A stretch of DNA of 64,000 nt, from positions 64,001-128,000 of the IMG/VR virus record IMGVR_UViG_3300037470_000856; one strand, written 5' to 3'. The position numbers and the translations under genes are program-made. Within the stretch, counting starts at the first letter, position 1; every line of letters starts with the position of its first letter. Positions 16,169 to 44,200 of the stretch are shown here, piece by piece. The DNA comes from a virus. The notes below the pieces were generated by a model. That model saw only the letters and a list, made by a program, of their open reading frames with translations, searched no databases and was not told the origin of the DNA.

Positions 16169-16392
16169 CCGCGATCCTACGGCTTGCGGAACACCAGGAT
16201 GGGCTCTCGTGCCTGGTCCTGCGACCGGTTGAGAGACGAGGTGGGTCGGTGGCGGTGCAATGGCGGTGACCCCGAGACGACCACTGATCCCACCGGTTCG
16301 CCACAGCCTCAAACCCCATCTCGACCGTAGGTCTGCTCGTCCCGCTCCGCGCTCCACGGACAGACGCCAGTAGCCGCGATCCTCCTACGGCT
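16169..16392. repeat. Imperfect direct repeat flanking a probable methyltransferase-tail remnant
   Basis: ccgcgatcctacggct (16169-16184) and ccgcgatcctcctacggct (16374-16392). The interior minus frame ends REPILVFRKP*. Confidence 0.5.
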
Positions 16393-27781: not shown

Positions 27782-30700
27782 TCAGGCCACGTCGAGCACG
27801 ACGACGGGGCGAAGCGGGTCGTCCGGGTGGAACGACCGGACGTGCGCGAGCCAATCGCCAGCCATACGTCCGTGGCGACCGCGCTCAAGCCACACCTGGG
27901 CAACGCGCTCAACCGCGAAGCGGGTCGGGCCGCGCTCCTCGAAGTCGCCGAACTCGGCGGAGAATTCCTCGCCGGGAGCCTCGCCCCCGCGCGCCGGCTT
28001 CTTCTCGTCCTCGTCGCCACCCTTGTCGGCGTAGCGCTCGGCCTCGTCGCGCTTCTTGAAACTCTTGGGGACGCCGTCCTCGTTCTTGGCGCGCCAGTTC
28101 CCCTGCTCGGTCCCCCAGACGTCGCCGGGGCCGTGCTCCTCGTCGTCCTTGACCTCCTCAGAGTCCGCACTCTCGGGAGTTTCACGATCGGAGGTCTCTG
28201 CCTTCTCATGCTCCTCCCTGGAGCGTGGCTCCTTGGCCTTCTCGTCGGGGTGCGGCAGCGTCTCCTGCTCGAGCACCTCACGCTCGCCGGTCTGCACGAA
28301 GTGGTTGAGCACCGCGGAGGCAGGCGAAATCACCACCTTGTCGAACTTGTCGCGGATCGTGTTGAGGATGGCCTTCGCCTTCTCGCGCAGTCCGGTTCCC
28401 TTCTTGGGATCGAACGTGCCCTCGACCATCTCGAGGTCCTCAGCCGAGGGCTGCTCGCCGTTCCTCTGCGCCTCCGCGATCCGCTCCTGCGCCTCGAGCA
28501 CCTTCTCCATGCGGGGCTTCATCCGGGAGGTCGCCTCGCCGAGCACCTCGGCGCGCGCCTCGGGGTCGTCGGCGTCGGCGATGCCGGCCGCCTGCATGGT
28601 GTCGCGCACGGCCCGGTCTCCCCACTGGTCGTTGAGGATGTCTTGGACCAGGAAGTCCTTCATCATCGCTCGCAGGACGTCGGGCGTGCCGTCGTTCTTC
28701 ATGAGGTCGACGAGGTCCGCGTAGCCATGCTCCTCGTCGCCGCCCGTGGTGAGATCGCCGAGCTGCTCAAAATTCATGTCGTCGAGCCCCTCCTGCATCT
28801 TGCGGCGCGCCTGCTCGGCGAAGTAGTCCTCGGTCGTCCTGAACAGCTCGGACCCCTTCCCGTCCACGACCATCTGCTTGACCAGCGCGGCCATGCCCTT
28901 GCTCGGCTGCGGACGACCTGGGAGCGACTCGCCAGTCACGGCGACCTGCGCGATGTTCATGCCGGTCAAAATCGCGTTGAGCTCCTGCGCCCGGTTGGTC
29001 TCGGGATCGAGACCCTTGAGGGCCCGCGCGACCTGATCGGCCGCGCGCCTGCGCAGGGACGACGGGAGGCGCTCGAACTGCTTGAACGCCGCCTGCGCCC
29101 GCTCCGAGTACTTCTCGGAGTCCATCTCGGTGACGCCGACCGGCGTCCCTCCGATGTTCATCGGGTTGCCCACGATGCGCTCGGCGTAGCTGAGTTGTGC
29201 GAGGCGCTCCGCGAGCTCTTTCGGGTCGGTGAGGCCGTGCAGATCTCCGAACTTGGCGGCTCTCGACGCGACGTCGACGGCCTCCTCGGAGCTTGGGTCC
29301 ATCTGCTTGAGATTCTTGAGCGTGTCCTGGAAATCGATCGAGAAGCTCTCGACCTGCGCCTCGTCGAGGTCGTTGAGGGCGCCGCCGATCTGCGTGGCGA
29401 GGTCGGGGGGAAGCCGCGTTTCCTTGCCGAGCATCTCCTCCATGTTGGTCTGCGCGCGCTCGACGGCGCGCTCGACCTTCTTGGCCCGCTCCTGGCGCAG
29501 CTTCTCCTCGCGCTTCTCCTTGGCGAAGCCCGGGTCCTTGCGCTCGCGCCTGAGCTCGTCGACGCGCGCCTTGGCGTCCGCGTGCTCCTCCTTCTTGTCG
29601 TCGAGCTCGTCCTGCTTGCGCCCCATCTCGCGCTGCATCTTCTGCATCGAGTCGAGTAGCTGCTGCCTGCCGGGGCCCTCTCCCATGTGAGGCAGGTACT
29701 CGTCGCGCTGCTGATTGATCTTGGACTTGAGGTCCTTGATCTCGTCGGTGAGGTCCCCCATCTGGGCCTCGATGTCGCGCATCTCGTCGCGCGCCTGCTC
29801 GAGCTCGACGTGCACGTCCTCGGTGGTGCGCTCCTTGTCCTCCTCGGTCTTCTTCCCCTTGTCGGTGCCCTCCTCCTCGGGCTGCTGCTGGCCCCGCCAC
29901 TTCTCGCGGATCTTGGTCTGCTCGTCAGGGGGCAGCGAGGTGAAGCCGACGTCGTTCCCGGTCTCGGGGTGCTTGAACTTCTGGTTCTTGACCCACTCCT
30001 CGAAACTCAGGCCGCTCTTGGGCTGCACCGGGGCCTCGGCCATGACGTGGCGCAGGGCCACGCGACGCGCGACCTTGTTCCACTTCATGGACAGGTCGGG
30101 GTCTCCCTTGTCGCCGCCGCCCATGCCGTCGAGGTCAGGGTCTTCCTCGTCCAGAGTCCGGTTGTCGCGGAGGTCGTAGCGCGGAGGCTTCTTCTTGGGC
30201 TCCGTGCGGAGCATCTTCTCGACGGCCTCATCCTCCTTCTCCGCGGGCGACTTCGTGGCCGTCTTCGCCTGCGGAGTCCTGATCATCGCGTCCTGAAAGC
30301 GGAAGTCCTTGTTGCGCCCCTTGTTGGGCCCCTTGTTGGGCACGAAGCCCATGCCGCGGTACCACTTCTCGAGGTGCTTCTTCGACGAGCCGAACTCGGA
30401 GGTCGGGGTGAACGTCACGGTCACGCCGTTGCTGTCAACCCAGTCGAGCGTCTCCTCCATTGCTCTCGAGGCGCTGCCCGACCCGCGCCTGTCCTCGTTC
30501 ACCCGGATCAGGTCCACGGACATGTGGCGGTGCTGCGGACGGTAGGCGGCGTGGGAATCTGTGAGGCTGTGCCTCTCGATCATAGACTTGCGCAGAGCGT
30601 CCCACTCCTCGCGGCTCGGGGGCTCGCGCTCGGGCGCGTCCTCGTCGTCGACGCCCATGACCCTGGCCTCCCACTCTTCGCGGGACAGAGCGGGACCTCC

Positions 30701-33700
30701 CTCTCGGCGCTTGCGCTGCACGTAGGCGTCGTAGGTCGGAGCGGCGAGCCTCGCGTTCGGGCGCGGCCGGTACTGCTCCTCGGGCGAATTGTCGACGTGC
30801 CGGCACATGTCGCAGCGTGTCCCGCACCGCCAGTACTCCTCGGAGTCAAAGGGGTAGCCGTCGTCGAGACCGTAGTGGTCGAGCAGCACGTTGAGGCAGC
30901 GCTCGCAGCTCTTCGCGGCGACCATGATGGCGTCGCCGACGTCCCACTGTCCGCTGCGCACCATGGTGTTGACGAGGTCGGTCGGGTACGACGACTCGCC
31001 CGCGCCTACGTCGGTGCTCGTGCCATCCTCGTTCAGACGTAGGATGCTGTGGTGCAAGACGTGGGGGAACTGGCTGTGCATGTACTCGGCGCCCTCGGGG
31101 GGCTGCCACGTCTCGTACTCGCCGAGGTCGCCGCCGCCGAGGCGGTTGCCATGGGCGTCCTCGTACCAGAGGATCGTGAAAATCTGGGGGTCGAACTCAA
31201 GCCCCTCGACGTGAGGGCGCGGACGCTCGTGCTCTCGGGCGATCCGGTAGACGGCCGGCGCGTTGCGGAGCCACCACCGACGGTCTCGGGACACGAGGAC
31301 CGGGGCAACCCCGGCGTGCGCCAAAATGAGGCGCTCGGTGTCGGTGCCGAGGAGCGCCGCCGTGCGCATGATTTTGGGGTCCGACGCCTTCCTCGTGTGG
31401 CTCTCGTTGACGGTGCCGTCCTTCATGTAGCCGTCCTCCAAACCCGGCACGAGGTACTGGCTGCGAAGGGTCGAAGGATCGTGCCCCACGGCCTCCGCCG
31501 TCGCTTCGAGGGCCTTCTTGAACTCGTCCTTGAGTTTCTTCTCGCGCTCCTTTCTGTCCTCGGGGAGTTTGCCCTTACGGACCTTGCGGAGTTGCGCCTT
31601 CATCTCGCGGTTGGCGTGGAACCCACGGAGGTCCTTCGCGGTGATGTCAAGCGGCTCGAGGTACTCGTTGACCTCCTGCGCCGAGACGCTCAGGACGCAG
31701 TCGTTGGGCTTCTTGCCCTTGCACGCCTCCTTGAGCGCCGAGACAACTCGCGGGTTACTGATCTTCTTCTTCTGCTCGACGCCCGACTTGCCGACGTAGG
31801 AGACCGTGACGGAGCCCCGGCCGAGGGTGATGTGCTTGACGCGCCAGGTTGTGACGCCGAAATGGCCCTCCTTGGCGCTGTCGTCGTTCCCGACGCGCTC
31901 AAACGTCTCGTCCATGAGGCCCACGGCCAACGCGAGATCGCGGGTCTTTTCGTCCTTCGACTTCACGTCCTTGCGGACCTTGGTCTGGAGTTTCTTCATC
32001 TGGCGTCGCAGCTTCTCGACGCGCTCCGCCTTCTTGCGGTTGCGGTCGGCCACCTGACGGTCGCTGTACTCGTAGACCGTCATCTCGTCCCCGTCCTTGG
32101 TCTTGACCTTCTTCTTAGACTTGTAGCGGACGGCGATGGCGGAGCACGTCGCCATCTTGCCCAGGTCAGGCTCGCGGGCCTCCATCTTGTCGCGGTAGCG
32201 GAACACGCGGACGGGGATCTTAGGCTCGCGATCATCGGGCAGCAGGTTGCGACGCCGCACCACCTCCGCGTGCTCAGGGACGAGGTACAGGAACAGCGCG
32301 GGGTGCGTGGTGTCGATGGTGAGCTGGCTCGTCGTCCGCATCTTGTCGGTGACGCGAACCGGGTTGAAGGGGCTGTCGGCGTCGTGAATCGCCTTGACGA
32401 GGGCCACCGCGGCGGCCTCGGGGCGTCGCACGTCCTGAAGGCGCTTCTGGGCCTCCCACCGGCGCACGATCGAGCTGACGTAGTCGTCGCCGTGCGTGTA
32501 GCCGGCGTCCGGGTAATTCACACCGTGGTTCGTCCGCGTGTTGACGCGGTCCGAATCGAGCTCAGTGACATGCGCAGGGTGATTCTTGCTGCACTCGATG
32601 CTGAACAGCTTGTTGCCGTCCGCCACAAACGTGTGTCCCCGGATGCCGCCGTTGTCGGTGCGCAGGGATCCCACGGCGTCGTCGATGTTGTCAAACGCGA
32701 GCGCGCGGTAGATCTTGGGGCCGTCCTTGGAGGTCAAGGGCCTCTTGCCCTTGCCCTTCCCCGGCGACTTTTTCTTGCCCTCGGCCTCGTCGCGTACGAC
32801 CATGAGGGTGGTGTTGACGGCCGCGATGCCGTGCTCGTTGACCCCCTCGAGGTAGCCGGTGACCGTGTCGAGGACGACGGCCATCTCGGTGCCGTCCTTC
32901 TCGATGTGCACGATCTCGAGCTTCGCGTCGTAGGCTCGGTCGCGGTTCTTGAGCAGGCACAGGCTGTCGCCGAAACGGCGCCCCGCGATGATGCACGCCT
33001 CCCTCAGCATGGCGGTCTTCTTGACGGACCTTCCCGAGTCGAGCACGACGATCTCGGACGTGTACGGCTTGCCTCGCACCTCGGTCACCGTGACGACCCC
33101 GTCGTAGCCGTCCTTCTGGAGCGCCTTGGTCAGCGCCTGCCCGCGCTTGCGGTACCGTCGCTCGAGCTGCGCCTTCCACGAGTTGTCGTCGTAAATCAGC
33201 CCGTCGGGGTCGGTGTTGACGGCGAGCACGAGAGGGTTGTCGAGTTTCACGGTGCCCGTGACGTATCCGGGCAGCGGGTCGTCGTCGTCGTCGTCGGTAG
33301 TTTTGTGCGTGACGTAGAACCCCGCGGGCTCGATCTTCTGCTGGTACGGGTCCGACCCCTTCGGGGCCCGCGGTGCCTTCTCGGTGTTGCGCAGGAACTC
33401 AAACTCGACCGGCGTGCCCGTCTCGAACTTGCGACCGCGCTCCTCGACGGTGCGGAGGGGCATCTCGTCGGACCTCCGCGAACTACTCCAGCGCTCGTAG
33501 ACCTTCCGCTGTTCGGCGTCCGGCAGCGAGTCGAAGACGACGTCGTTGCCCGTGTCGGGGTTGCGGAAACGCTGCCCCTTCACCAAGTCGAGAAACTCCC
33601 TGGAGTACGCAGCCTGCTTGCGCCGGTCGGCTCGCCAGATCTTGTAGAGACCGATGACGCGGTTCTTCTTGCGGCCCTTGGGGATCGGCTCGATCTCCAC

Positions 33701-33841
33701 GGACGGCACCCCGCGATCGTCGTCGAACAGGCGCACGACCCGGCCGCGCTTGTTCTTGCCGAACAGCACCTCGTCGCCGACCTTGAAGTCGTCCTGCGCT
33801 GCCAGGTGGCGCATGGCCACGCGTGCGACGAGAGCACTCAC
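27782..33841 (-). CDS. Giant multidomain protein: KOW, ART-like, Ntn-hydrolase (C45-like), DNA topoisomerase IB, GNAT, coiled coil
   Basis: Likely start GTG at 33841 (GTGA overlap), 2019 aa. TopoIB motifs RVGN, GKSG, KDLR, GH, QYL. Ntn motifs CIIAG...KNRD...EGVNEHG. GNAT motifs RRGSG...WYRGMGF. ART-like motifs GFY...NPL...GYDGV...EIVV. Confidence 0.85.
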   Translation of the reverse strand: MSALVARVAMRHLAAQDDFKVGDEVLFGKNKRGRVVRLFDDDRGVPSVEIEPIPKGRKKNRVIGLYKIWRADRRKQAAYSREFLDLVKGQRFRNPDTGNDVVFDSLPDAEQRKVYERWSSSRRSDEMPLRTVEERGRKFETGTPVEFEFLRNTEKAPRAPKGSDPYQQKIEPAGFYVTHKTTDDDDDDPLPGYVTGTVKLDNPLVLAVNTDPDGLIYDDNSWKAQLERRYRKRGQALTKALQKDGYDGVVTVTEVRGKPYTSEIVVLDSGRSVKKTAMLREACIIAGRRFGDSLCLLKNRDRAYDAKLEIVHIEKDGTEMAVVLDTVTGYLEGVNEHGIAAVNTTLMVVRDEAEGKKKSPGKGKGKRPLTSKDGPKIYRALAFDNIDDAVGSLRTDNGGIRGHTFVADGNKLFSIECSKNHPAHVTELDSDRVNTRTNHGVNYPDAGYTHGDDYVSSIVRRWEAQKRLQDVRRPEAAAVALVKAIHDADSPFNPVRVTDKMRTTSQLTIDTTHPALFLYLVPEHAEVVRRRNLLPDDREPKIPVRVFRYRDKMEAREPDLGKMATCSAIAVRYKSKKKVKTKDGDEMTVYEYSDRQVADRNRKKAERVEKLRRQMKKLQTKVRKDVKSKDEKTRDLALAVGLMDETFERVGNDDSAKEGHFGVTTWRVKHITLGRGSVTVSYVGKSGVEQKKKISNPRVVSALKEACKGKKPNDCVLSVSAQEVNEYLEPLDITAKDLRGFHANREMKAQLRKVRKGKLPEDRKEREKKLKDEFKKALEATAEAVGHDPSTLRSQYLVPGLEDGYMKDGTVNESHTRKASDPKIMRTAALLGTDTERLILAHAGVAPVLVSRDRRWWLRNAPAVYRIAREHERPRPHVEGLEFDPQIFTILWYEDAHGNRLGGGDLGEYETWQPPEGAEYMHSQFPHVLHHSILRLNEDGTSTDVGAGESSYPTDLVNTMVRSGQWDVGDAIMVAAKSCERCLNVLLDHYGLDDGYPFDSEEYWRCGTRCDMCRHVDNSPEEQYRPRPNARLAAPTYDAYVQRKRREGGPALSREEWEARVMGVDDEDAPEREPPSREEWDALRKSMIERHSLTDSHAAYRPQHRHMSVDLIRVNEDRRGSGSASRAMEETLDWVDSNGVTVTFTPTSEFGSSKKHLEKWYRGMGFVPNKGPNKGRNKDFRFQDAMIRTPQAKTATKSPAEKEDEAVEKMLRTEPKKKPPRYDLRDNRTLDEEDPDLDGMGGGDKGDPDLSMKWNKVARRVALRHVMAEAPVQPKSGLSFEEWVKNQKFKHPETGNDVGFTSLPPDEQTKIREKWRGQQQPEEEGTDKGKKTEEDKERTTEDVHVELEQARDEMRDIEAQMGDLTDEIKDLKSKINQQRDEYLPHMGEGPGRQQLLDSMQKMQREMGRKQDELDDKKEEHADAKARVDELRRERKDPGFAKEKREEKLRQERAKKVERAVERAQTNMEEMLGKETRLPPDLATQIGGALNDLDEAQVESFSIDFQDTLKNLKQMDPSSEEAVDVASRAAKFGDLHGLTDPKELAERLAQLSYAERIVGNPMNIGGTPVGVTEMDSEKYSERAQAAFKQFERLPSSLRRRAADQVARALKGLDPETNRAQELNAILTGMNIAQVAVTGESLPGRPQPSKGMAALVKQMVVDGKGSELFRTTEDYFAEQARRKMQEGLDDMNFEQLGDLTTGGDEEHGYADLVDLMKNDGTPDVLRAMMKDFLVQDILNDQWGDRAVRDTMQAAGIADADDPEARAEVLGEATSRMKPRMEKVLEAQERIAEAQRNGEQPSAEDLEMVEGTFDPKKGTGLREKAKAILNTIRDKFDKVVISPASAVLNHFVQTGEREVLEQETLPHPDEKAKEPRSREEHEKAETSDRETPESADSEEVKDDEEHGPGDVWGTEQGNWRAKNEDGVPKSFKKRDEAERYADKGGDEDEKKPARGGEAPGEEFSAEFGDFEERGPTRFAVERVAQVWLERGRHGRMAGDWLAHVRSFHPDDPLRPVVVLDVA

Positions 33842-36800
33842 CGGCGCAGCTCCTCGATCACCCGGTCGGTCAAGTGTTGTCCCTTGACCGCGAGCTTGGG
33901 GTCCTGGAGGATGATGTGACGAGCCGTCGGCACGATGTGACGACGGTCGGGCCCGGGCAGCTTGAGGACGTCGATGATGCGGGGGTTGTCCACGGGCGGC
34001 TTGATGAGTTTCTCGACGAGCGCGACAGCGTCCTTCTCGGGCATCGAGACGGTCAGGGCTCGCAGGCGGTCGCGTCCCGACGGATCGAGGAAGGAGATCG
34101 GCGTGGAGGCGGGCACGCCCAGCTCGAGCAGGTCGAGCAAGAACTGCACCTTTCGGTTGCGCCGGAGCTGGTTCGCCATGTACGCGGCGAAGGGCTTCTG
34201 CTCCTGGATCATCTCGGACACCACGTCGAGCAGCCCGAGCATCTTCATCTCCTTGAGGGAGCGCCGGGCGGTCGGCTGGTTGAGGACGTCGTTGACGAGG
34301 ATGGACGCGACGGCCTCCCATGGCATGCGCTTGAGCTTGGGCGCGTTCTTGCGGATCGACCGGATCACGTCGGGAGGGATCTTGAACCCGTACTTGCCCG
34401 TGAACTTGATAGCCCGGAGCATGCGCGTGGGGTCGTCGGAAAACACCCGGTCGGGCTCCTGCGGGCACTTGATGACGCGGCGCTTGAGGTCGGCTCGGCC
34501 GCACCCCGTCAGGTCGATGATCTCCGCCTTGTCGGGCCCGTGCGCCAGGTCGAGCATGCGCCACAGCAGCGTGTTGTGGACTACCACCCCGTTTGCAACG
34601 AAGGCCGGCTCGATCCCGTCACCCATCGAGATGTCGAATACGTCTTGGTCTCCGGCGTCCTCAACCGAGACGACCTCAACGTACTGGTATCCCAGTTCAA
34701 ACAACCGTTGGAGTTTGACATGTTCACTTGCGCTGATAGCCATGAGGCTCGCCAGGAACTCCCCGAAATCACCGCGAACGTAAGCGTCGTGCAGAAGTCG
34801 TTTCGGACGGCGGAGCGCCTCCAAAATACCGCTTTCGGCGACCTCACCACCCTCGTCCGTTCGGTACATCGAAGGTCCTTGGTTGTTTCCGACCCGTGTC
34901 CTGCGTCCCTTCAAAAACCCTTGGAGGTGTTCTTTCGGGACCCCATACCGGTTCCGGCTCTTGCAGGTCTGCTGCGCGTAGTCGAACCCCTTGGTCACCA
35001 TCCACGGCTGGATCTTTTCCCACAGGAGGGCCGAGTCCACGGCATTGAGGTAGACGAACCTGTCCTTCACCTTGCTCAGGACGCCGTGAGCACCGAGGAG
35101 CGCCTGCAACTGCTGTCGGACATGAGGCGACGCCGAGCAGAAGGTGATACGACCCGTGTCAAGTCGAATGGAGCCGTCACCCTCGAGGTAGGCGGCCAAG
35201 AAGGCCCACTGACTCCGCTCGTCGGCTTGGAGGATGGACCAAGGCACCACCTTGTGGTGAGAAGGAGACTTTCCATCCCGCGCACCTCCGCAGTACAGGC
35301 CCAGTTCATCCAGCCACCCCACAACTGCCTTGCTGTCGGCGTAGATGTCGTAGCCGTCTGAGTTCGCGACGAACTCGACGCCCCGCAAGACCCTCACCGA
35401 GCCCTTCTCGATCACCTTGTTCTGCAAAGGTTGGAACCCGAACACAGTGTTGAAACACTCGACGTAGCGGGAAATGAGAGCCCGATCCGAGTTGCTGAAT
35501 GACACCCGCTTGTGTGTGTTCGATCCCTCAGCCACCACGCACCCGATCACGAACGCCAGCTCGGGCGTCATCGCTTCGGGTTTGTGCGCCGCCTTGAGAG
35601 TGCCGCGCTTCGGCTGTGCGGGGTCTTTCAACTCCAAAGTCAGCGGCTCCTGCCTCGTCACCTGCCGCACGGGAACGCAGAGAAGGTCGCCCTCTTCAAG
35701 TTGATCGGCCTGCACCCAAACGTGGTTGTGCCCTCGGAGGACCAAGACTGGATGGTGGTGCGTGCAGGAGAAGGAGTGGCCCCACTCGGTCGTCACCCGA
35801 AGCGTAGGGGCACAGCCGCTGTACTGCCACCCCACAGCCACCGCGGGACCGTCTTTCCCCGCCACGGTCAAATTGAGATCCTGATGGTCTCCCTTCTCTC
35901 GAGAGGCGATCTGGTCGATGCGAAGGATGCCCCTCTCCGTAGGAATGAGGGTGTCTCCGGCCATGCAGTTGAAGGTGAACTCCCGGCGCAGGACGTCCTC
36001 CTCGATCGTCGCGGGGGCGACCGAGTGGGGCTTGTACCCCTTGCCGCCGCTGCCCCCGTAGCTCTCCTTGCGGGCGTTGGCGATCTCGAGCACCTCGCCG
36101 TCGAGATCCTCGCCGCCCACGATCCACGGCCCCTTCACGGTCAGGATGGCGACGCCGTACTGGTTCGTCGTTACGTTGGTCGGCGCCGGGATGTTCCGGG
36201 CGATCTGCTTGGCGAGCCAGTCGGAGTCGCGGCCGGCCTTGGTCATGTCGATGACGATGTCGATGTCCTTGATCGGCTGGTTGATCAGAAAGTTGCGCAC
36301 AGCCCCGCCCACGACGTAGGTGTCCCGGCCCACCCCGAGGCGACGGGTGAGATCGGACAGCCACTTCATCAGGGCCACGTTTTTGCGATGGACGGAGCCT
36401 TCCACGGTCAAGGATGCTACCCGACGCCGGATCCACGTCGAGGCGACCTTCGCCGCGGAGGGCCCCATCTTGAGCTTGTGGACCTCGGGGAGCCCCCAAA
36501 CCTCCATCTCGTCGAAGGCCCATGATCCCTCGGGCACGGGGCCGTCCCACTCGGCGTCCATGCCGGGCATGTAGGCGAGGGTGACGTGGGGCTTGTACTC
36601 GGGGAAGCTGTCCCCGACCTCAATGCCCGCGTCGTGGAGCTCCTGCTTGACGCGGTGCTTGAAGCCCGACAGATCCTTGTCGAACTCGACGGCGACGTGC
36701 GGGACGCGGCGATCCTTGTCGTGGTGATCGAAGTACTCGAGTCCGTTGAGCCGCGCCTCGCACTTGGGCCACCACTTGCGGCAGCACTCGCGGAGCACCT

Positions 36801-37944
36801 CGACGAGCTTCTCCTGCTGCTTCTCGCCCTTGAAGTCGCCGATGTAGAGGAACGTGACGTGGCTCGGAGAGTCGTCGTTCTCGCCCAGGCTCGGAAACTT
36901 CTTCGCCAGGTCCTTGGGCAGCGGGATGAACATGCCGACGGACTCGCCGTCCCCGGTCTTGCTTCCCGTGGCCTTGGCTGTCTTGCCCTTGGGGTACTCG
37001 CCGTACTTCTCGCCCACGACGCCGTCGGGCACCCTGCGCTCGCGCACGATGTCCTTCGGCATCTCGGACTTCTCGTTCTTCCAGGCCTCGAAATGCTTCT
37101 CGCAGAACCAGGCGCGCCCGCGACCGTCTGCCCAGATGCCCTCGCGCTCGGGCGGCTTCTCGCATCCGGCGTGCATGCACTTCGACATGCTGTGACGGCT
37201 GGCGGCGTATCTCCAGAGCTGCGCCACCCGGATCGCGGTTTTCCGGCTGCCTCCGCGCCACTCCGCGAACTCCTTCTGCACCTGGGCGCGGAAGTGCGGA
37301 CTCGTTTTGAGCAGCGTGGAGGCAGCTACCTCGGGGTAGCGCTTCCGCGTCTGCGGATTGGTGTTCAGGACCTTCTTCTTGCCACCGTCGTAGCGTTCCG
37401 CGAGGAACTGCTCCCACTCGGCGCTGGTGGGCTTGCCAGGGTCCTTGGGAGGCTCCTTCTTGGGAGGCTCCTTCTTGGGCTCGGGCTTTTTCTTCGGCTG
37501 CTCCTCGGAGGCCGGCCCCACACGCTCTCCGTGGAGCGCGTTCTTGCCTCGGCCCAACTGGCTCGACGGGCGGTCCACGAGGGCGAACAGGCGTCCTCGA
37601 TCCACAAATCTCAGACCGTGCTTCGGGGCCACGTCCGAGAATTCCATGAGGGGGCCCGAGAACAGGGAGGAGCCGTCGGGCTTCTTGATGTGCACCTCGG
37701 TGTTCGTCACCTTGTCGGCCCACGCCTTGGCCTCGTCCTCCGTCTTGAACCCTTGCAAGACGGCGCCGCCCCTCTGCTGGTGCGCGATCGCCTTGTGCCG
37801 GTCCACCACGCGGACGGGGCCCGAGGGCCACTGGTTCGGGTTCACGTCGGCGACGACGGCGTAGTTGGCCTTCGCCTTCGCCACCCGCACGCGCAGCCAA
37901 GAGTTTGCGGCTTTCGTGAAGTTCTGAATTGCGGAACGCGGCAC
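33838..37944 (-). CDS. Multidomain protein: repeat module + 2H phosphoesterase + class II CCA/poly(A)-type nucleotidyltransferase with intein
   Basis: HVTF and HVTL (two HxT motifs); VVGGAVRN...DIDI, EDVLRREFTFN, DDPTRMLRAIKF. Confidence 0.9.
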   Translation of the reverse strand: MPRSAIQNFTKAANSWLRVRVAKAKANYAVVADVNPNQWPSGPVRVVDRHKAIAHQQRGGAVLQGFKTEDEAKAWADKVTNTEVHIKKPDGSSLFSGPLMEFSDVAPKHGLRFVDRGRLFALVDRPSSQLGRGKNALHGERVGPASEEQPKKKPEPKKEPPKKEPPKDPGKPTSAEWEQFLAERYDGGKKKVLNTNPQTRKRYPEVAASTLLKTSPHFRAQVQKEFAEWRGGSRKTAIRVAQLWRYAASRHSMSKCMHAGCEKPPEREGIWADGRGRAWFCEKHFEAWKNEKSEMPKDIVRERRVPDGVVGEKYGEYPKGKTAKATGSKTGDGESVGMFIPLPKDLAKKFPSLGENDDSPSHVTFLYIGDFKGEKQQEKLVEVLRECCRKWWPKCEARLNGLEYFDHHDKDRRVPHVAVEFDKDLSGFKHRVKQELHDAGIEVGDSFPEYKPHVTLAYMPGMDAEWDGPVPEGSWAFDEMEVWGLPEVHKLKMGPSAAKVASTWIRRRVASLTVEGSVHRKNVALMKWLSDLTRRLGVGRDTYVVGGAVRNFLINQPIKDIDIVIDMTKAGRDSDWLAKQIARNIPAPTNVTTNQYGVAILTVKGPWIVGGEDLDGEVLEIANARKESYGGSGGKGYKPHSVAPATIEEDVLRREFTFNCMAGDTLIPTERGILRIDQIASREKGDHQDLNLTVAGKDGPAVAVGWQYSGCAPTLRVTTEWGHSFSCTHHHPVLVLRGHNHVWVQADQLEEGDLLCVPVRQVTRQEPLTLELKDPAQPKRGTLKAAHKPEAMTPELAFVIGCVVAEGSNTHKRVSFSNSDRALISRYVECFNTVFGFQPLQNKVIEKGSVRVLRGVEFVANSDGYDIYADSKAVVGWLDELGLYCGGARDGKSPSHHKVVPWSILQADERSQWAFLAAYLEGDGSIRLDTGRITFCSASPHVRQQLQALLGAHGVLSKVKDRFVYLNAVDSALLWEKIQPWMVTKGFDYAQQTCKSRNRYGVPKEHLQGFLKGRRTRVGNNQGPSMYRTDEGGEVAESGILEALRRPKRLLHDAYVRGDFGEFLASLMAISASEHVKLQRLFELGYQYVEVVSVEDAGDQDVFDISMGDGIEPAFVANGVVVHNTLLWRMLDLAHGPDKAEIIDLTGCGRADLKRRVIKCPQEPDRVFSDDPTRMLRAIKFTGKYGFKIPPDVIRSIRKNAPKLKRMPWEAVASILVNDVLNQPTARRSLKEMKMLGLLDVVSEMIQEQKPFAAYMANQLRRNRKVQFLLDLLELGVPASTPISFLDPSGRDRLRALTVSMPEKDAVALVEKLIKPPVDNPRIIDVLKLPGPDRRHIVPTARHIILQDPKLAVKGQHLTDRVIEELRR
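34573..35967 (-). mobile_element. Intein with LAGLIDADG endonuclease in the CCA-type nucleotidyltransferase (465 aa)
   Basis: Begins CMAGDTLI, has CTHHHP and VIGCVVAEG / FLAAYLEGDG, ends VVHN followed by Thr. Confidence 0.95.
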
Positions 37945-37990: not shown

Positions 37991-38527
37991 CTAAAACCCG
38001 CTTGGCCGTGATCTTCGCCGGGCCTGTCGGGCGGCTTCCTCAGCGGCCGCGGCCTCCTGCTCGAGCATCTCGGCCTCGCTCTCCGCGAGCTCGCGGGCGT
38101 GCTCCACCTGATCCCTTGCGTGCCGTGCCTGCTTCCGGGCCGTCTCGGCCCGACCCTCGGCGATCTCGGCCTTGGCTTCGCCGAACGACTGCACCCGCAT
38201 CTTGCGGCCTCCCGTCATTGGAGAATGCACATGGTCGGGAGGTACCGGAACGAAGGGCCCCGTCAGGTTCCTCGGATCGGCCGGCACCGTGATTCCCCCC
38301 ATGTCGGGAATCGGAGGGCCTTCGTGGTAGGCCCCGCGCTCGGGGTATTCCTCGGCCACGCGATGACCTTCTCGGGCCTGCTCCATCTGGCGCTGGATGA
38401 CGCCCCTGGTCGGCGCGAGCACCTCGACGATGTGCTCCTCGGGATCCCCGTCTCCGGGCATCATGGAGGTGCGGTTCTCGATGAGTGCGTGGAGGGTCTC
38501 AATCTCCTCGTCCAAAAGGTCGGTCAC
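37991..38527 (-). CDS. Hypothetical protein
   Basis: 178 aa, coupled to the portal stop. Confidence 0.75.
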   Translation of the reverse strand: MTDLLDEEIETLHALIENRTSMMPGDGDPEEHIVEVLAPTRGVIQRQMEQAREGHRVAEEYPERGAYHEGPPIPDMGGITVPADPRNLTGPFVPVPPDHVHSPMTGGRKMRVQSFGEAKAEIAEGRAETARKQARHARDQVEHARELAESEAEMLEQEAAAAEEAARQARRRSRPSGF

Positions 38528-40506
38528 TCTTCGCTCTTCTTCCTGGTCCCGATCAGACGCTCGACCACCGCGTCGGCGATCTTGGCGACCATGTCGTCGG
38601 AGAGCTCAAGGGCCTTGGCGGAGGCGGTCCGGAGCGATGCGAAACGTCCCATGGGCCCCTCCTCCGGCTTCGTGTAGTCGAGCCCGAGCCGCTCGGCGAT
38701 CTTCTCGGCGATGTTGGAGTTCTCGGCGAGCTGGTCTCCAGTGCGACCGTAGACGGACCGAAGCACCTCGTTGAACTGCGCGTCGTTGAAGGTGGCGAAG
38801 TCCCGCTCGAGGCGCTCCTTGACCACCACGGGGTCGATGTTGAGCAGGTCGAGGATGGTCTCGACGTCCAGGGACCCCTTCTGGTAGAGTTGCATGAGCG
38901 CATCGAAGGTGTCCTGGTTGTCCCGGAGCGCGAGCCTCGTGAAACTCAGCTTCGGGTAGATGACGACCATTTCGCCGTCCGCGTCCTTCTCCACGAATCC
39001 CATGCGGCGGCACATGGGCTTGAAGAAGTACTGCTCGACGAGACGCTGCACGTTCTCGCGCAGCAGCATGTAGCGCGTGTTGATGACCTCGAGGTTGATC
39101 CGGTCACCGCTGTAGGAGGACTCGCCGTTGAGCAGCGTCTCGGTCACGCCGAGGCCCGCGTAGAGCTGCCGGCTGATCAGGTCGTACTCGCCGGTGAGCT
39201 CGAGCAGGCGCCCGTTCGAGTTCATCTCCTCCCAGGTGACCGGGAAGTTCGTGACGATCGAGTAATCCGGGTCCTGAAGCGCAAGGTCAATCTGGTCGCG
39301 CAGGTTCTCCGTGTCAGACTCGCTCATGTCCTCCGCGTACACGAGCCGCACGGGCGTCATGTGGCGCGAGGCGATGGATGTCTGTGCCTGGCGGAGTTTG
39401 TCGAAGTAGACGAGGACGCGGAGGCAGCGCTGGAGGATGCTGTGGCCGCGAGGCTCGTACTGCGACTTCTTGTTCGCCATGTAGTGGACGAACGAACCCC
39501 CGTCGGGGTCCGTCGAAAGCGGAATGTTGTCGCCTCGACGCAGGGCTTCGACGACGACGGGGTCCATCGACTCGGCGACGCGCTGCGCGTTCCTGTCGCC
39601 CTGCTCCGCCATCTCGAGAACGTGTTTCGTCTTCGCGTCGGGGATCAACTCGATGATGACTTGGTCCGTGAACGGGAAAGTCTGGATGTGCACCTGCTCG
39701 GGAGGCAGGATGCGGATGTTCGTGAGACCCCGGTAGTTCTGCTTGAGCCAGTCGACCGCGAGGTCGTCGGCCTCGTCTCGCTCGACCCACTCCTCCCTCA
39801 GCGTGCTGTCGCGCTCGACGCGACGCACGATCTTCTCCCGGATCTCCCGAGGCATCTCCGGGTTTCCATCCTCGCAGAAGATGAACACCTCGCCGATGAG
39901 AAAGTAGTCGTGGACGATCTCGAGCAGCCGCTGCAGCAGCCCGATGTTCTCCACCCACTTCTCGCAGAACCTCAGGGCCCTGTCCGCGAGGTCCCGGCTC
40001 TTGGCCTTCGGACGCGCGAGCCGGACCTTCGACAGGGGAAGCTCCGTGTGCAGGTCGATGGCCTGCCCGACGAACGGCTCGTTGTTATAGAAGAACCGGT
40101 AGTAGTTCCACTGCTCGTTGAGCGACTGTGGGAGCTCGAGGAAGTCGGGGGACAACTCGGGCGAGTAGAAGTTGCCCGCGGACGCCTGCGAGACCGCGCC
40201 GGGTCCCGCGTTGCCCCCGAAACCTCCGCCCCCTCCGAAACCTCCGCCCCCTCCGACCACGCCGCCACCGAAGCCAGTACCCCCGAACGAACCGGAGCCC
40301 GGGCCGCAGGAGGCAGCCACCTTGGCGCGGAAGCTCGTGGTCGCCTTCGACCTCATGGAGCCGACAACGACGCGCGATGGCTTGCCCACGCGGACGTGGG
40401 TCCGGTGGTTGGGCACCTCTGCGACGACGCGCTCGTCCTCGTTCCGCCGCGTAGACGCGACGGTCGCGGGGCCTGCGATCGCCTTACCTGATCCTTCCGC
40501 TGGCAT
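38524..40506 (-). CDS. Portal protein
   Basis: FYNNEPFVGQAIDLHTELPLS, YFLIGEVF, PRGHSILQR, LYAGLGV..LL.GE..Y; lies near the terminase gene. Confidence 0.8.
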   Translation of the reverse strand: MPAEGSGKAIAGPATVASTRRNEDERVVAEVPNHRTHVRVGKPSRVVVGSMRSKATTSFRAKVAASCGPGSGSFGGTGFGGGVVGGGGGFGGGGGFGGNAGPGAVSQASAGNFYSPELSPDFLELPQSLNEQWNYYRFFYNNEPFVGQAIDLHTELPLSKVRLARPKAKSRDLADRALRFCEKWVENIGLLQRLLEIVHDYFLIGEVFIFCEDGNPEMPREIREKIVRRVERDSTLREEWVERDEADDLAVDWLKQNYRGLTNIRILPPEQVHIQTFPFTDQVIIELIPDAKTKHVLEMAEQGDRNAQRVAESMDPVVVEALRRGDNIPLSTDPDGGSFVHYMANKKSQYEPRGHSILQRCLRVLVYFDKLRQAQTSIASRHMTPVRLVYAEDMSESDTENLRDQIDLALQDPDYSIVTNFPVTWEEMNSNGRLLELTGEYDLISRQLYAGLGVTETLLNGESSYSGDRINLEVINTRYMLLRENVQRLVEQYFFKPMCRRMGFVEKDADGEMVVIYPKLSFTRLALRDNQDTFDALMQLYQKGSLDVETILDLLNIDPVVVKERLERDFATFNDAQFNEVLRSVYGRTGDQLAENSNIAEKIAERLGLDYTKPEEGPMGRFASLRTASAKALELSDDMVAKIADAVVERLIGTRKKSEE

Positions 40507-41276: not shown

Positions 41277-44200
41277 CTATCGCCCCCGCCTGCGAGGAAC
41301 CTGCCGCTTCGGGTCGGAGCCGCCGAGCAGCCTCTTCCTGTGGTTGATGCGTCGGACCTTGGCCGAGACGCCGGGCTGGTTCGGATCGGCGTTCGTCTGG
41401 GAGCCCGCGATGTGCTTCAGCTTCCCAAGATGCATACTCGCGAGATAGAGCGAGCGCGCGAGCGCGTCCGCCATATCGTCGTGCTTCCCGTCGGACTGCG
41501 GCGCCTGGACGTCGATGATGTACTTGGCCTTGTAGGTCGCTTGGAGGGAGCGGATCTCCTCAAGGTACTCAAGGTGCTCGGGAGGGGTCTCCTCGCGCCG
41601 GAGGTATGCCTGCTTCTCCTGGTCGGTGATGTCGTAGAGGGAGAGGCGCGACGTATCACCGACGCGGTCCCACAACAGCGACTTGAAGTTCTGCCAGATC
41701 TGGCTCTTCTCGGTCTGCGAGAAGAGTTTGCCCTCGAGCATGGTCAGGCCCTTCTTAGCGAGCGCCTGCTCAAGGGGGATGGCGCCCCACTGGTCGAAGA
41801 GGCCCTTGTAGAACCGGAAGCGGCGGGAGAGCAGGTAGATCCAGTTGGCGACGTCCTCGAACTCAAGCCGGTCCTTGTCGATGAACTCGCCCTCGCCGGC
41901 CTTCATCTTGCCGATGAAGTCGAGGATGATGCGGCCCTGCGGGTCGATGTGCGTGATGGCGATCGACGAGGCGTCGTGGACGAGGCCGAGGTCGAACCCG
42001 ACGAAGTACGCCTGCCGAGGCTCCCCGCGGTGACGTGGGCGAAGGTTCTTGTCGATGCAGTCCCACAGATCCTGGTCCGAGTCGAGCCAGCCGAGGGTGC
42101 GGTCGGTGAACTCAGCCCCGAACTCAACCTGGAACTTGCGCGGGTCGAAGGCGTACTCCTCCTTGAACGCGGCCGCGGACATGGTCGGGTTCACCTCCCA
42201 CGTCGGCGCCTGCACGGCGAGCATGTTGCGGGTAGAGTCCCCCCCGTTCATCGCCTGCTTGAACTTGTCGTAGAAAAGACCCTGCTTGCCGAGGGGGCTC
42301 GAGATCATGATGATCCGGCCCTCGGACTCGGTGTCATCGCCGTCGGCCGGGTTGCCGAACGCGTCCTTCGGAGTGAACGTCTTGTTCGACGGCGACAGGG
42401 CCGTGTAGACCTCCTCGGCCGAGCTGCCGCCCTGCTCGAGGAAGTGCGCGACCTCGTCGAGGATGATGACGATGTTGCCCGGACCGCGGAGGCTCTTGGC
42501 GTTGCAGGCCGCGAACGAGACGCGCACGGAGGCGCGGGCCCGGGGGTTCTCGACGTAGGAACCGAACTCCTCGATGTCGTACGGAGTCTGGAAACGCGCG
42601 TAGGAGAGGGTGTTGTTCGCCGTGTACCGCTTGAAGAACGAGCACTTGGCGAAGTGGTGGCTCACCTCCTCGTAAAGAAGACCCGCCTGGTCCTTGCCCG
42701 TCGCCACCGAGAGGAGGCGGATCGGGTTGGAGGGGGCGAGCCCGTAATACCTCTGCGGGTTGCCTTTGTTGATCAGCTTGTACGTCTCGTACGCGGAGAT
42801 GCACGCGGAGATCGTCGTGTTGTGATTGGTCAGACCGTTGGCCACGAAGCTCTCGCCCTCGGGCACGTTGAGATCGTAGACCTCGTCATGGTCCTCCACC
42901 ACGAACTCGACGGGATCGTAGAAGTAATCGGCGGAGAAAATCTCGTCGAAATGCTCGATGAAGTCACGAGACGCTCCTTGGCCCAGGGCCACCGGTCGCG
43001 CCTCCCTCCAACGGGGGTAGGTCATCTCGTCGGGCGCAGAGAGCTTGATCGTGTTGCCGAGTTTGTCGCGCAGCTTGGACCGTTGCCAGCCATTGCCCAT
43101 GCTTTTGTGCTCCGTGGGAACGGAGTCCAGCAGTCTCCGGCACCACGAGCGCTGGTGAGGAACACCCTCCGTGTCGCCCCTCTCTCGGGACACCGACCGA
43201 ATCTTTGCGACAAGAGGGGCCATCTTCTTGCGCGTCATGAACCCCACGCGCTCAGCAAACATCGTGCGCGACCGCAACCCCCGAATCGTGAGGACGTGGT
43301 AGTCGCGTCGATGCTTCTTGTTCCACTTGGCCTTGCGACGGCTCACAATGCCCAAGTTAAGGAGCAACACCTGAACCTCGCGAGCAAGACGCTCGCTGGC
43401 CGTCGAGAACGAGACGGTGTTTCCGACTGACTCGACGTCTCCGTCCGTCTCGAACAGACCCCGCAGGAACGCCTGCACGACAGGTACCGGAGACTTCATG
43501 ATCGACCACGGGACGTGCTTGCTGTACCGGTCGCAGTCCCAGTCCCACCCCAGCTCGTGCAGGAATTCGCGAGCGGCCACGCTGTGAAAGCGCAACGCAC
43601 CCGTGTTCTCCGTCCTCTTGTCCATCGTGCGTGTGGATGGCCCGAGCAGCTCCTCGAAGAGACCCTCAGCCAGTTCCCACATCTCGTCGTGCTCGACGGT
43701 CATGCAGATGCCGTTCTGGGGCTTCCAGTGACCGTCTCCCACCAGCATCCCGAGAAGGAGGCCCCACTTCTCGTCGACGTGAGCTGGGAATTGAACGTTC
43801 TTGCGTCCCGGATGAAGCAGACGCTCGACAACATCGGTCGTCGAGACCTGTTCGGACGCCCACAGATCCGTCCCACGGTGAACCGCGATCTGATCTCTCT
43901 CACGGATCTCGTCCAGCCTGCGCCAGTCGATGACCCCTTCCTCCGTCATAACCCTGACGCGGTGGTTGGGGGTGCCCGCGATCTCGTACCCGCAGTGCGT
44001 CTTGACTCGACGAATCTCTCGGTGGCCTCCTCGATAGAAGTAGGCCGACTTGCTGCGCTTCCGTGCCCCCTCCTGTGCGACGGTGATCTCGAGAGGGAAG
44101 TGCTCCTCGCCAGGGTACTGAACCCACGACAAGAAATCGTCGAAGCTGTCGATCCTGACCACTCCTTGGTCGGTGAAAACGAGAGTGTCGCCGACAACAC

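What the first reader, a model, noticed from the sequence alone, without database searches (positions are those of the whole stretch)
33838..36935. 2H phosphoesterase fused to a CCA-type nucleotidyltransferase: possible injected tRNA-repair or anti-CBASS enzyme
A 2H domain (~36480-36935) precedes a class II NTase with no visible HD domain. Known: 2H enzymes open 2',3'-cyclic phosphates, and Acb1 is a 2H enzyme that degrades cyclic nucleotides. Inference: it repairs tRNA 3' ends damaged by host defence, or the two domains have separate anti-defence roles. The NTase has variant motifs (GGAVRN, RRE instead of RRD, DDPTR), so its specificity is uncertain.
Basis: partly seen in the sequence, partly recalled or inferred. 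Interest (0 to 1): 0.75.

Follow-up and report, generated by a model that had tools for sequence, protein, structure and literature searches.

The report
Portal-adjacent phage 2H–CCA-type enzyme polyprotein
An uncultivated giant phage from sediment encodes, right after its portal gene, one 1368-residue protein that joins an RNA cyclic-phosphate-opening enzyme to an intein-interrupted tRNA-tail (CCA-type) polymerase. It most likely mends or completes tRNA 3' ends and may travel in the capsid, but neither activity nor packaging has been measured.

Summary
The gene is 33838-37944 (-), 1368 aa, not 33838-36935. It has N-terminal modules (aa 1-336), an intact LigT/ThpR-like 2H phosphoesterase (aa 337-480) and a class II CCA-type nucleotidyltransferase (aa 511-659 and 1125-1368). 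A 465-aa LAGLIDADG intein splits the nucleotidyltransferase inside motif B. There is no HD domain.

The "variant" motifs GGAVRN, RRE and DDPTR are conserved hallmarks of a distinct, metagenome-only phage clade of about 217 clusters at 50% identity. They are not signs of decay.

The gene lies between the portal and the prohead protease. Its stop overlaps the start (GTGA) of a 2019-aa topoisomerase-IB protein, and in some relatives all these domains form one chain. It is therefore a new mosaic of the known phage "polyvalent" proteins.

2H is a frequent partner of this nucleotidyltransferase (42 of 120 long forms) but not a fixed one, and its position varies. No specific likeness to Acb1 was found.

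tRNA 3'-end repair or maturation is the best-supported function. Capsid delivery rests on gene position alone. CCA versus A or poly(A) specificity is unresolved.

This scan already found the same architecture in at least 8 other genomes.

The parts
33838..37944 (-). Whole ORF, 1368 aa (P0001). GTG start with a GGAG 9 nt upstream. The TGA stop overlaps the GTG start of the next ORF (GTGA).
36937..37944 (-). N-terminal part, aa 1-336. Clearly coding (GC3 0.85-0.92). Contains a tag-like motif at aa 11, a K/P/E-rich linker, a repeated module and a Zn-ribbon module. The fold is mostly unresolved.
37258..37428 (-). Repeated module, aa 173-229 (YDGGKKKV..NPxT..YPEV). It occurs twice more in the 1894-aa protein, at window 5124-5333 and 8880-9047.
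37213..37230 (-). Border tag RVAQLW (aa 239-244), matching the pattern [RK][VIMLA]A..[WYHF].
37090..37179 (-). Cys/His module CMHAGC...FCEKH (aa 256-285), a putative zinc ribbon. It is conserved in relatives, often near their N-terminus. Model pLDDT is 82-95 over aa 251-320.
36505..36936 (-). 2H phosphoesterase domain, aa 337-480, with HVTF (aa 362) and HVTL (aa 453). LigT/ThpR-like.
36433..36450 (-). Border tag KVASTW (aa 499-504), in the linker between 2H and the nucleotidyltransferase.
35968..36414 (-). N-extein of the class II nucleotidyltransferase, aa 511-659: leader helix, GGAVRN, DIDIV, flexible loop, RREFTFN.
34573..35967 (-). Intein, aa 660-1124 (465 aa): Cys1, THHH block B, two LAGLIDADG motifs, terminal HN, with Thr at +1. 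GC3 is lower (0.68-0.83) than in the exteins.
33841..34572 (-). C-extein of the nucleotidyltransferase, aa 1125-1368: rest of head, neck (DDPTRMLRAIKF), body and tail.
38524..40506 (-). Portal gene (context). One 178-aa ORF (37991-38527) lies between it and P0001.
27782..33841 (-). Next ORF, 2019 aa, with a topoisomerase IB core (context). In relatives such as P0021 it is fused to 2H and the nucleotidyltransferase in one chain.

Best explanation
P0001 is a portal-adjacent 'polyvalent' multi-enzyme protein of an uncultivated huge phage. The contig is 141 kb, CheckV rates it 31% complete, and it comes from sediment.

After the intein splices out, the protein carries two active enzymes. One is a LigT/ThpR-like 2H phosphoesterase that opens RNA 2',3'-cyclic phosphate ends. 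The other is a class II CCA-type nucleotidyltransferase that adds C and/or A to tRNA 3' ends.

The most likely job is upkeep of tRNA 3' ends during infection. That would mean rebuilding tails removed by host tRNA-tail-cutting defences and completing the phage's own CCA-less tRNAs.

Gene position, the modular build and the border tags suggest that the protein is loaded into the prohead, perhaps cut into separate enzymes, and delivered with the DNA.

Shown: domain identities, intact motifs, folds, the intein, gene context and the clade.
Inferred: tRNA as substrate, cooperation of the two enzymes, processing and packaging.
For: Domains:
- Pfam, PHROG and NCBIfam assign the domains.
- Catalytic motifs are conserved at 95% or more in 103 relatives.
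- 81 of 82 2H domains keep two Hx[TS] motifs.

Fold:
- A model of a 70%-identical intein-free relative has pLDDT 89.5.
- Its nucleotidyltransferase part aligns over about 390-460 columns to full-length CCA-adding or A-adding enzymes, some solved with tRNA bound (5hc9, 4wc2, 6qy6, 1miv).
- Its 2H part aligns to LigT 5ldm, CPDase 5h7e and 4qak.

Intein:
- Intein-free alleles read RREF(T/S)FNTLLWR, exactly the predicted splice product.

Context:
- The order is large terminase, portal, a 178-aa ORF, P0001, the 2019-aa TopoIB protein, then the prohead protease.
- The same position right after the portal is seen in L002 and L005, and probably L001.
- Relatives fuse this nucleotidyltransferase to 2H, TopoIB, PAP2, HAD_SAK_1 ('Swiss Army Knife RNA repair'), RNA ligase, InPase and ART-PolyVal domains.

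Links to RNA repair:
- Stand-alone clade members lie near a T4-type RNA ligase 1 (five genes away, L003) or next to a histidine phosphatase (L004).
- One member carries an HD domain (P0178).
- 2H is present in 42 of 120 long forms and in 12 of 30 two-module forms.
- Two of the phage's 7 tRNA genes lack an encoded CCA.

Processing:
- Border tags are enriched upstream of the nucleotidyltransferase (41 of 122 observed, 9.7 expected) and after 2H (29 of 60 observed, 4.4 expected).

Literature:
- CCA-adding enzymes of jumbo phages are read as RNA repair (PMC7824862).
- tRNA CCA-tail cleavage is now a proven phage defence, and no viral counter is known (PMC12851939).
Against: - No NCBIfam equivalog cut-off is reached. 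PcnB scores 88 bits, actinobacterial CCA 78 and CCA 71, against cut-offs of 290-440. CCA, A-only and poly(A) addition cannot be told apart.
- By my own knowledge of the enzymology, LigT-type 2H enzymes leave a 2'-phosphate. No phosphomonoesterase is recognisable in P0001, so the healing pathway looks incomplete here.
- The order of 2H and the nucleotidyltransferase varies: 12 adjacent on the N side, 11 distant on the N side, 19 on the C side. 78 of 120 long forms and 90 of 120 short forms lack 2H. The two may be independent cargo.
- Iyer et al. 2017 (PMC5512222) predicted that 2H domains of polyvalent proteins are RNases or signal-nucleotide degraders, not repair enzymes.
- Cas12a3 uses a RuvC site, so by my own knowledge it should leave a 3'-OH and need no 2H. 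It also trims into the discriminator base, which a CCA enzyme would not be expected to restore.
- Packaging rests on gene position alone. No MuF domain was found and there is no proteomics.
- No RNA ligase was found on the fragment, which is only 31% complete.
Confidence: 0.55

Rival explanations
1. Independent cargo. The two enzymes share a chain only because this phage lineage strings unrelated host-takeover enzymes together. The nucleotidyltransferase serves tRNA ends. The 2H domain degrades host immune signal nucleotides (2'-5' or cyclic oligonucleotides) or acts as an RNase.
For: - The order of 2H and the nucleotidyltransferase is free, and 2H is absent from most clade members.
- Tags are enriched at module borders, which suggests cleavage into separate units.
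- The linker has low confidence and pTM is 0.62, so the model gives no fixed geometry between the domains.
- Iyer et al. 2017 made this prediction for 2H domains in polyvalent proteins.
Against: - The 2H domain matches LigT, ThpR and CPDase, and TIGR02258 'RNA 2',3'-cyclic phosphodiesterase'. It does not reach the Acb1 cut-off (15.6 bits against 27).
- Among two-module forms, 12 of 30 carry 2H.
- Other partners are RNA-end enzymes: HAD_SAK_1, PAP2 and RNA ligase.
- One clade member carries an HD domain instead.
Confidence: 0.25
2. Not a tRNA enzyme. The nucleotidyltransferase is a poly(A)- or other RNA-tailing polymerase that marks host or phage RNAs for decay or control.
For: - The best NCBIfam score is to the PcnB subfamily (88.4 bits).
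- No CCA equivalog cut-off is reached.
- The clade is far from every characterised enzyme: about 20% identity to PDB chains.
Against: - The templating motif D (DDPTR) and the flexible loop are conserved.
- The best fold matches are CCA-adding and A-adding enzymes over their full length, and E. coli PAP ranks lower.
- The PHROG name is tRNA nucleotidyltransferase.
- The partner domains are RNA-end healing enzymes.
Confidence: 0.1
3. Not packaged. The gene is merely co-transcribed with the head genes and acts in the cytoplasm late in infection, for example to mature the phage's CCA-less tRNAs.
For: - There is no direct evidence of packaging.
- Two of the 7 phage tRNAs need CCA added.
- Stand-alone clade members lie in non-structural regions.
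Against: - The multi-domain forms examined lie right after the portal in four unrelated contigs. This is the position that the 2017 polyvalent-protein paper treats as typical of packaged proteins.
- Tags are shared with other giant head-module proteins.
- A maturation enzyme made late would come too late for most phage translation.
Confidence: 0.25

Closest known systems
Phage-type polyvalent proteins (Iyer, Burroughs, Anand, de Souza, Aravind 2017, PMC5512222)
   Same: Several unrelated enzymes sit in one very large chain, in the phage head module near the portal. The 2H, InPase, ART and GNAT domains recur, and the architecture is a mosaic that reshuffles between relatives.
   Different: That paper never mentions a CCA-type class II nucleotidyltransferase (0 occurrences of 'CCA'). 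Its Pol-beta NTases are minimal protein-modifying domains of conjugative elements. No MuF or zincin domain was found here. It reported that 2H never occurs with RNA ligases, yet in this clade P0043 and P0064 combine the nucleotidyltransferase, 2H and an RNA ligase.
Class II CCA-adding and A-adding enzymes (T. maritima 3h37/5hc9, P. halocryophilus 6qy6, B. stearothermophilus 1miv, A. aeolicus 4wc2)
   Same: The head-neck-body-tail fold aligns over the whole chain. The DxD motif, the flexible loop and the motif D Asp and Arg are present.
   Different: Identity is only about 20%. The clade has GGAVRN instead of GGxVRD and RRE instead of RRD. It is fused into giant proteins and split by an intein. 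It falls below every NCBIfam equivalog cut-off.
E. coli-type multifunctional CCA addition/repair protein (NF008137), with its C-terminal HD domain
   Same: A CCA-type nucleotidyltransferase is joined to a phosphoesterase. By my own knowledge (Yakunin et al. 2004), the HD domain can open 2',3'-cyclic phosphates. The logic would be the same: clean the 3' end, then rebuild it.
   Different: The phosphoesterase here is an unrelated 2H fold, lies on the N-terminal side and is absent from many relatives. There is no HD domain. NF008137 scores 48.8 bits against a cut-off of 451.
LigT/ThpR RNA 2',3'-cyclic phosphodiesterases (5ldm, 4qak, 5h7e; TIGR02258)
   Same: Two HxT motifs and the same fold (TM-score 0.56-0.67 normalised to the target).
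   Different: It scores below the TIGR02258 cut-off (38.3 bits against 65.7). It is embedded in a polyprotein.
Acb1 anti-CBASS 2H phosphodiesterase (PF23474)
   Same: Both belong to the 2H superfamily and are phage-encoded.
   Different: The match is 15.6 bits against a cut-off of 27, over 25 residues around the second HxT only. It is not among the fold matches shown.
Stand-alone CCA-adding enzymes of jumbo phages (PMC7824862; Bacillus phage G gp522, Aeromonas phage 65)
   Same: They are phage-encoded and read as tRNA repair.
   Different: Identity is at most 34%, over the head and neck only. They are not fused and not in the head module.

Membership tests
Class II nucleotidyltransferase superfamily (PF01743 PolyA_pol head) | Pfam score above the gathering cut-off | tested here: met
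   49 bits against a cut-off of 23, even with the domain split by the intein. Intein-free relatives score 55-63 bits.
Class II nucleotidyltransferase superfamily (PF01743 PolyA_pol head) | Motif A GG..R. plus DxD carboxylates, motif B RRD, motif D (E/D)DxxR | tested here: met
   GGAVRN, DIDIV, RREFTFN and DDPTR are present. Two positions (D to N, D to E) differ from the textbook consensus but are at least 95% conserved in the clade.
Class II nucleotidyltransferase superfamily (PF01743 PolyA_pol head) | Head-neck-body-tail fold | tested here: met
   The model of relative P0010 aligns over 390-460 columns to 6qy6, 5hc9, 1miv and 4wc2, with E 1e-12 to 1e-11.
CCA tRNA nucleotidyltransferase (NCBIfam equivalogs NF009814, TIGR02692, NF008137) | Score above the curated equivalog cut-off | tested here: not met
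   Scores are 71.5, 78.5 and 53 bits against cut-offs of 290, 439 and 451. PcnB scores 88.4 against 306.
CCA tRNA nucleotidyltransferase (NCBIfam equivalogs NF009814, TIGR02692, NF008137) | Adds C, C, A to the tRNA 3' end without a template | not testable with these tools
   Needs an enzyme assay.
2H phosphoesterase, LigT/ThpR-like (PF13563, PF02834) | Two H-x-T/S motifs and a Pfam score above the cut-off | tested here: met
   HVTF at aa 362 and HVTL at aa 453. PF13563 scores 32.1 bits against 27.
2H phosphoesterase, LigT/ThpR-like (PF13563, PF02834) | LigT-like fold | tested here: met
   Matches to 5ldm, 5h7e and 4qak at E about 2e-6, for a relative whose 2H domain is 76% identical.
Acb1 anti-CBASS (PF23474) | Pfam score above the cut-off | tested here: not met
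   15.6 bits against 27, over 25 residues only.
Multifunctional CCA/repair enzyme with HD domain | C-terminal HD phosphohydrolase domain | tested here: not met
   No PF01966 hit at E<=1. The chain ends with the nucleotidyltransferase tail.
Class 1 intein with LAGLIDADG homing endonuclease | Cys1, block B TxxH, terminal His-Asn, a nucleophile at +1, two LAGLIDADG motifs, and intein-free alleles at the same site | tested here: met
   - The sequence shows C660, THHH, HN1124 and T1125.
- PF14890 scores 47.3 bits and PF14528 41 bits.
- 103 relatives run uninterrupted across the site.
- 15 relatives carry an intein-like insert, 62-78% identical where BLAST compared them.
Phage polyvalent proteins (Iyer et al. 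2017) | Two or more unrelated effector domains in one chain, encoded in the phage head module near the portal or MuF | tested here: met
   2H plus the nucleotidyltransferase plus N-terminal modules. The gene lies between the portal and the prohead protease. Relatives carry ART-PolyVal and InPase domains.
Phage polyvalent proteins (Iyer et al. 2017) | Packaged in the capsid and delivered with the DNA | not testable with these tools
   Needs virion proteomics. No cultured relative exists in the phage collection.

The most novel reading that the evidence does not exclude
A ready-made tRNA-tail repair kit, a 2H end-healing enzyme plus a CCA-type polymerase, is packed in the capsid and injected with the DNA. 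It would undo tRNA-tail cleavage by host immunity (HEPN-type RNases, Cas12a3-like nucleases) before any phage gene is expressed. This would be the 'yet unknown means of resistance' that the Cas12a3 paper (PMC12851939) asks for.
Probability: 0.2. Interest if true: 0.8.

Novelty: new variant of a known kind. Interest (0 to 1): 0.55.

Why it matters
Cutting the universal CCA tail of tRNAs is now a demonstrated anti-phage strategy (Cas12a3, PMC12851939). It cannot be evaded by phage-encoded tRNAs, and no viral counter-measure is known.

This nucleotidyltransferase belongs to a distinct phage-only clade of about 217 clusters at 50% identity. Members are often chained to RNA-end healing enzymes and, in the four contigs examined, encoded next to the portal. 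That makes the clade an obvious candidate counter-measure, and natural intein-free alleles make it directly testable.

It also adds a domain to the polyvalent-protein repertoire that the defining 2017 paper does not list. In addition, it documents an intein insertion site in motif B of a CCA-type enzyme.

Tried and rejected
- Acb1/anti-CBASS membership: rejected, because the match is below the cut-off and the fold matches are LigT-like.
- HD domain: absent.
- Cultured relatives: tblastn against 50,697 phage records found only intein hits or nucleotidyltransferase heads at 34% identity or less. No fusion was found.
- RNA ligase (PF09414), RtcB and TROVE: not found on the 141-kb fragment. The fragment is only 31% complete, so this says little. 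The PF09511 search rang in no control genome and is uninformative.
- Expression: no RNA holder listed.
- Intein-free allele of this phage: no contig joins across 34573-35967 in four sediment runs. Contigs from three further runs bridge the intein-extein junctions with identical sequence. Coverage is patchy, so nothing follows about absence.
- N-terminal 140 aa: the ESM Atlas search gave no usable hit.
- N-terminal 336 aa: the model is poor (pLDDT 61), except for the Cys/His module.
- NCBIfam could not separate CCA, A-adding and PcnB.
- Burroughs & Aravind 2016 (the 'Swiss Army Knife' RNA repair proteins) is not held, so I could not check whether it lists a 2H-CCA fusion.
- Complex prediction was not used, because the two domains are in one chain and the model's linker is flexible.


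Full report
**What is there**

The window is bases 64001-128000 of a single 141,029-bp IMG/VR virus record. The record is linear and CheckV rates it 31% complete, so it is a fragment of a huge phage. GC content is about 65%. The record's DNA is found in sediment metagenomes.

On the minus strand one open frame runs from GTG 37944 to TGA 33838, giving 1368 aa (P0001).
- A GGAG lies 9 nt before the GTG.
It falls to 0.68-0.83 inside the intein.
- The database's own gene call has 1348 aa (P0002).

**Anatomy**

| Residues | Feature |
|---|---|
| 1-336 | N-terminal modules |
| 337-480 | 2H phosphoesterase (HVTF at 362, HVTL at 453) |
| 481-510 | Linker holding the tag KVASTW (aa 499) |
| 511-659 | Nucleotidyltransferase, first part (GGAVRN 546, DIDIV 560, RREFTFN 653-659) |
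| 660-1124 | Intein: Cys1, THHH, two LAGLIDADG motifs, terminal HN, Thr at +1 |
| 1125-1368 | Nucleotidyltransferase, second part (DDPTR 1170, RAIKF 1177) |

No HD domain is present.

**The nucleotidyltransferase**

A homology search found hundreds of metagenomic relatives.
- 103 intein-free relatives align along the whole module. GGAVRN, RREFTFN|TLLW and DDPTRMLRAIKF are conserved at 95% or more.
- Intein-free alleles read exactly the predicted splice junction.
- 15 relatives carry an intein-like insert. In those that BLAST compared it sits at the same site and is 62-78% identical.
- An exhaustive HMMER search over 1.84 billion representatives gave 217 clusters at E<=1e-30, against 1,333 at 1e-10 and 14,068 at 1e-3. 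The best solved structures score only about E 1e-13. I read this as a separate clade.
- A model of the 70%-identical relative P0010 (aa 240-840) has pLDDT 89.5.
- Its nucleotidyltransferase part matches full-length CCA-adding and A-adding enzymes over 390-460 columns, so head, neck, body and tail are all present.
- No NCBIfam equivalog cut-off is reached, and PcnB, CCA and A-adding models score alike. Specificity therefore stays open.

**The 2H domain**

- It matches PF13563 above the cut-off.
- It matches TIGR02258 "RNA 2',3'-cyclic phosphodiesterase" below the cut-off.
- Its fold matches E. coli LigT, D. radiodurans CPDase and 4qak.
- The Acb1 model gives 15.6 bits against a cut-off of 27.
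- 81 of 82 2H domains in the relatives keep two Hx[TS] motifs.

**Context**

The gene order on the minus strand is as follows:
1. Large terminase, with its own intein.
2. Portal (38524-40506).
3. A 178-aa ORF.
4. P0001.
5. A 2019-aa protein with a topoisomerase IB core, whose GTG start overlaps the P0001 stop (GTGA).
6. Two small ORFs.
7. Prohead protease, with intein-type Hint and LAGLIDADG hits.

Relatives show the same placement.
- P0010 follows a 620-aa gene with no family annotation, probably the portal, and precedes a protein of more than 1462 aa.
- P0021 is one 2268-aa chain with 2H, the nucleotidyltransferase and TopoIB, right after a portal.
- P0123 (2H plus the nucleotidyltransferase, 707 aa) lies between a likely portal (661 aa) and a protein of more than 3113 aa.

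Partner domains in the clade include the following:
- 2H
- topoisomerase IB
- DUF5661
- HAD_SAK_1 ("Swiss Army Knife RNA repair")
- PAP2
- InPase
- ART-PolyVal
- RNA ligase
- Fic
- superoxide dismutase (SOD)
- C39 peptidase
- a Zeta-type kinase

This is the polyvalent-protein pattern of Iyer et al. 2017. That paper, however, never mentions a CCA-type enzyme and read its 2H domains as RNases or degraders of signal nucleotides.

**Is the 2H-nucleotidyltransferase pairing meaningful?**

I counted 2H domains in two searches seeded with the nucleotidyltransferase C-terminal half alone.
- Long forms: 42 of 120 carry 2H. Twelve have it adjacent on the N side, 11 distant on the N side and 19 on the C side.
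- Short forms: 90 of 120 are stand-alone enzymes of under 540 aa. Of the 30 longer ones, 12 carry 2H.
- One member carries an HD domain instead (P0178).
- Stand-alone members lie in non-structural regions. One is five genes from a T4-type RNA ligase 1, with an AAA_28 gene two genes away (L003). Another is next to a histidine phosphatase (L004).

So 2H is the most frequent single partner and the company is RNA-end chemistry, but the pair is neither fixed nor obligatory. I could not measure the background frequency of 2H in polyvalent proteins that lack this nucleotidyltransferase.

**Modules and tags**

I tested the pattern [RK][VIMLA]A..[WYHF] on the relatives.
- It occurs 10-70 aa upstream of the nucleotidyltransferase in 41 of 122 proteins, against 9.7 expected.
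- It occurs just after 2H in 29 of 60, against 4.4 expected.
- P0001 has three copies, at aa 11, 239 and 499. They split it into an N-terminal unit, a Zn-ribbon plus 2H unit, and the nucleotidyltransferase.
- The model's inter-domain linker has low confidence and pTM is 0.62.

This fits a chain of separable units. Cleavage itself is not shown.

**Function**

The phage fragment carries seven tRNA genes, and two of them (Leu-CAG, Pro-GGG) lack an encoded CCA.

From my own knowledge, HEPN-type toxins also trim tRNA 3' ends and leave cyclic phosphates, which a 2H enzyme would open.

There are gaps.
- LigT-type enzymes leave a 2'-phosphate, and P0001 has no recognisable phosphatase, although relatives have PAP2, HAD or His_Phos domains.
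- Cas12a3 probably leaves a 3'-OH, so 2H would not be needed against it.

**Verdict**

- The protein is a new mosaic of a known class (polyvalent proteins). It carries a clade of CCA-type enzymes that I did not find described in the searchable literature.
- The same architecture was already reported by this scan in at least 8 other genomes.
- Activity, specificity, processing and packaging all still need experiments.

Noticed in passing
window 41277-44564 (-), 34573-35967 (-), 22246-25293 (-): Intein signatures occur in three genes of one head module. The large terminase (LAGLIDADG_3 70.6 bits, Intein_splicing 47.7 bits) and the nucleotidyltransferase have clear inteins. The prohead protease has weaker Hint and LAGLIDADG hits.
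   Followed up: partly
window 37090-37179 (-), aa 256-285 of P0001: A Cys/His module (CMHAGC...FCEKH) is conserved in relatives, often near their N-terminus, and is confidently modelled (pLDDT 82-95 over aa 251-320). It is a possible zinc ribbon of unknown role.
   Followed up: partly
window 37258-37428, 5124-5333 and 8880-9047 (all -): A module of about 57 aa (YDGGKKKV.N.NP.T...YPEV) occurs once in P0001 and twice in the 1894-aa protein (44-51% identity).
   Followed up: partly
genome 128381-130013, i.e. 381-2013 bases beyond the window's end: A cluster of seven tRNA genes (Leu x2, Pro x3, Arg x2). Leu-CAG and Pro-GGG lack an encoded CCA; the other five have it.
   Followed up: yes
window 33838-33841: The TGA stop of P0001 overlaps the GTG start of the 2019-aa topoisomerase-IB protein (GTGA), which suggests coupled translation. 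Relatives have both parts in one ORF.
   Followed up: partly
L003:9545-11588 and L003:1508-2914: On a 151-kb contig with a stand-alone clade member, Cas6 and Cas8b genes lie about 1.3 kb downstream of the nucleotidyltransferase. A T4-type RNA ligase 1 lies about 4 kb upstream.
   Followed up: no
window 16385-18901 (-): An 838-aa protein combines a LAGLIDADG_2 endonuclease with a borderline DNA methylase hit (26.6 bits against a cut-off of 26.7) and zinc-finger-like motifs.
   Followed up: no
P0178 (692 aa, on a 363-kb contig): One clade member combines the nucleotidyltransferase with an HD domain (PF01966), the arrangement of the bacterial multifunctional CCA enzymes.
   Followed up: no
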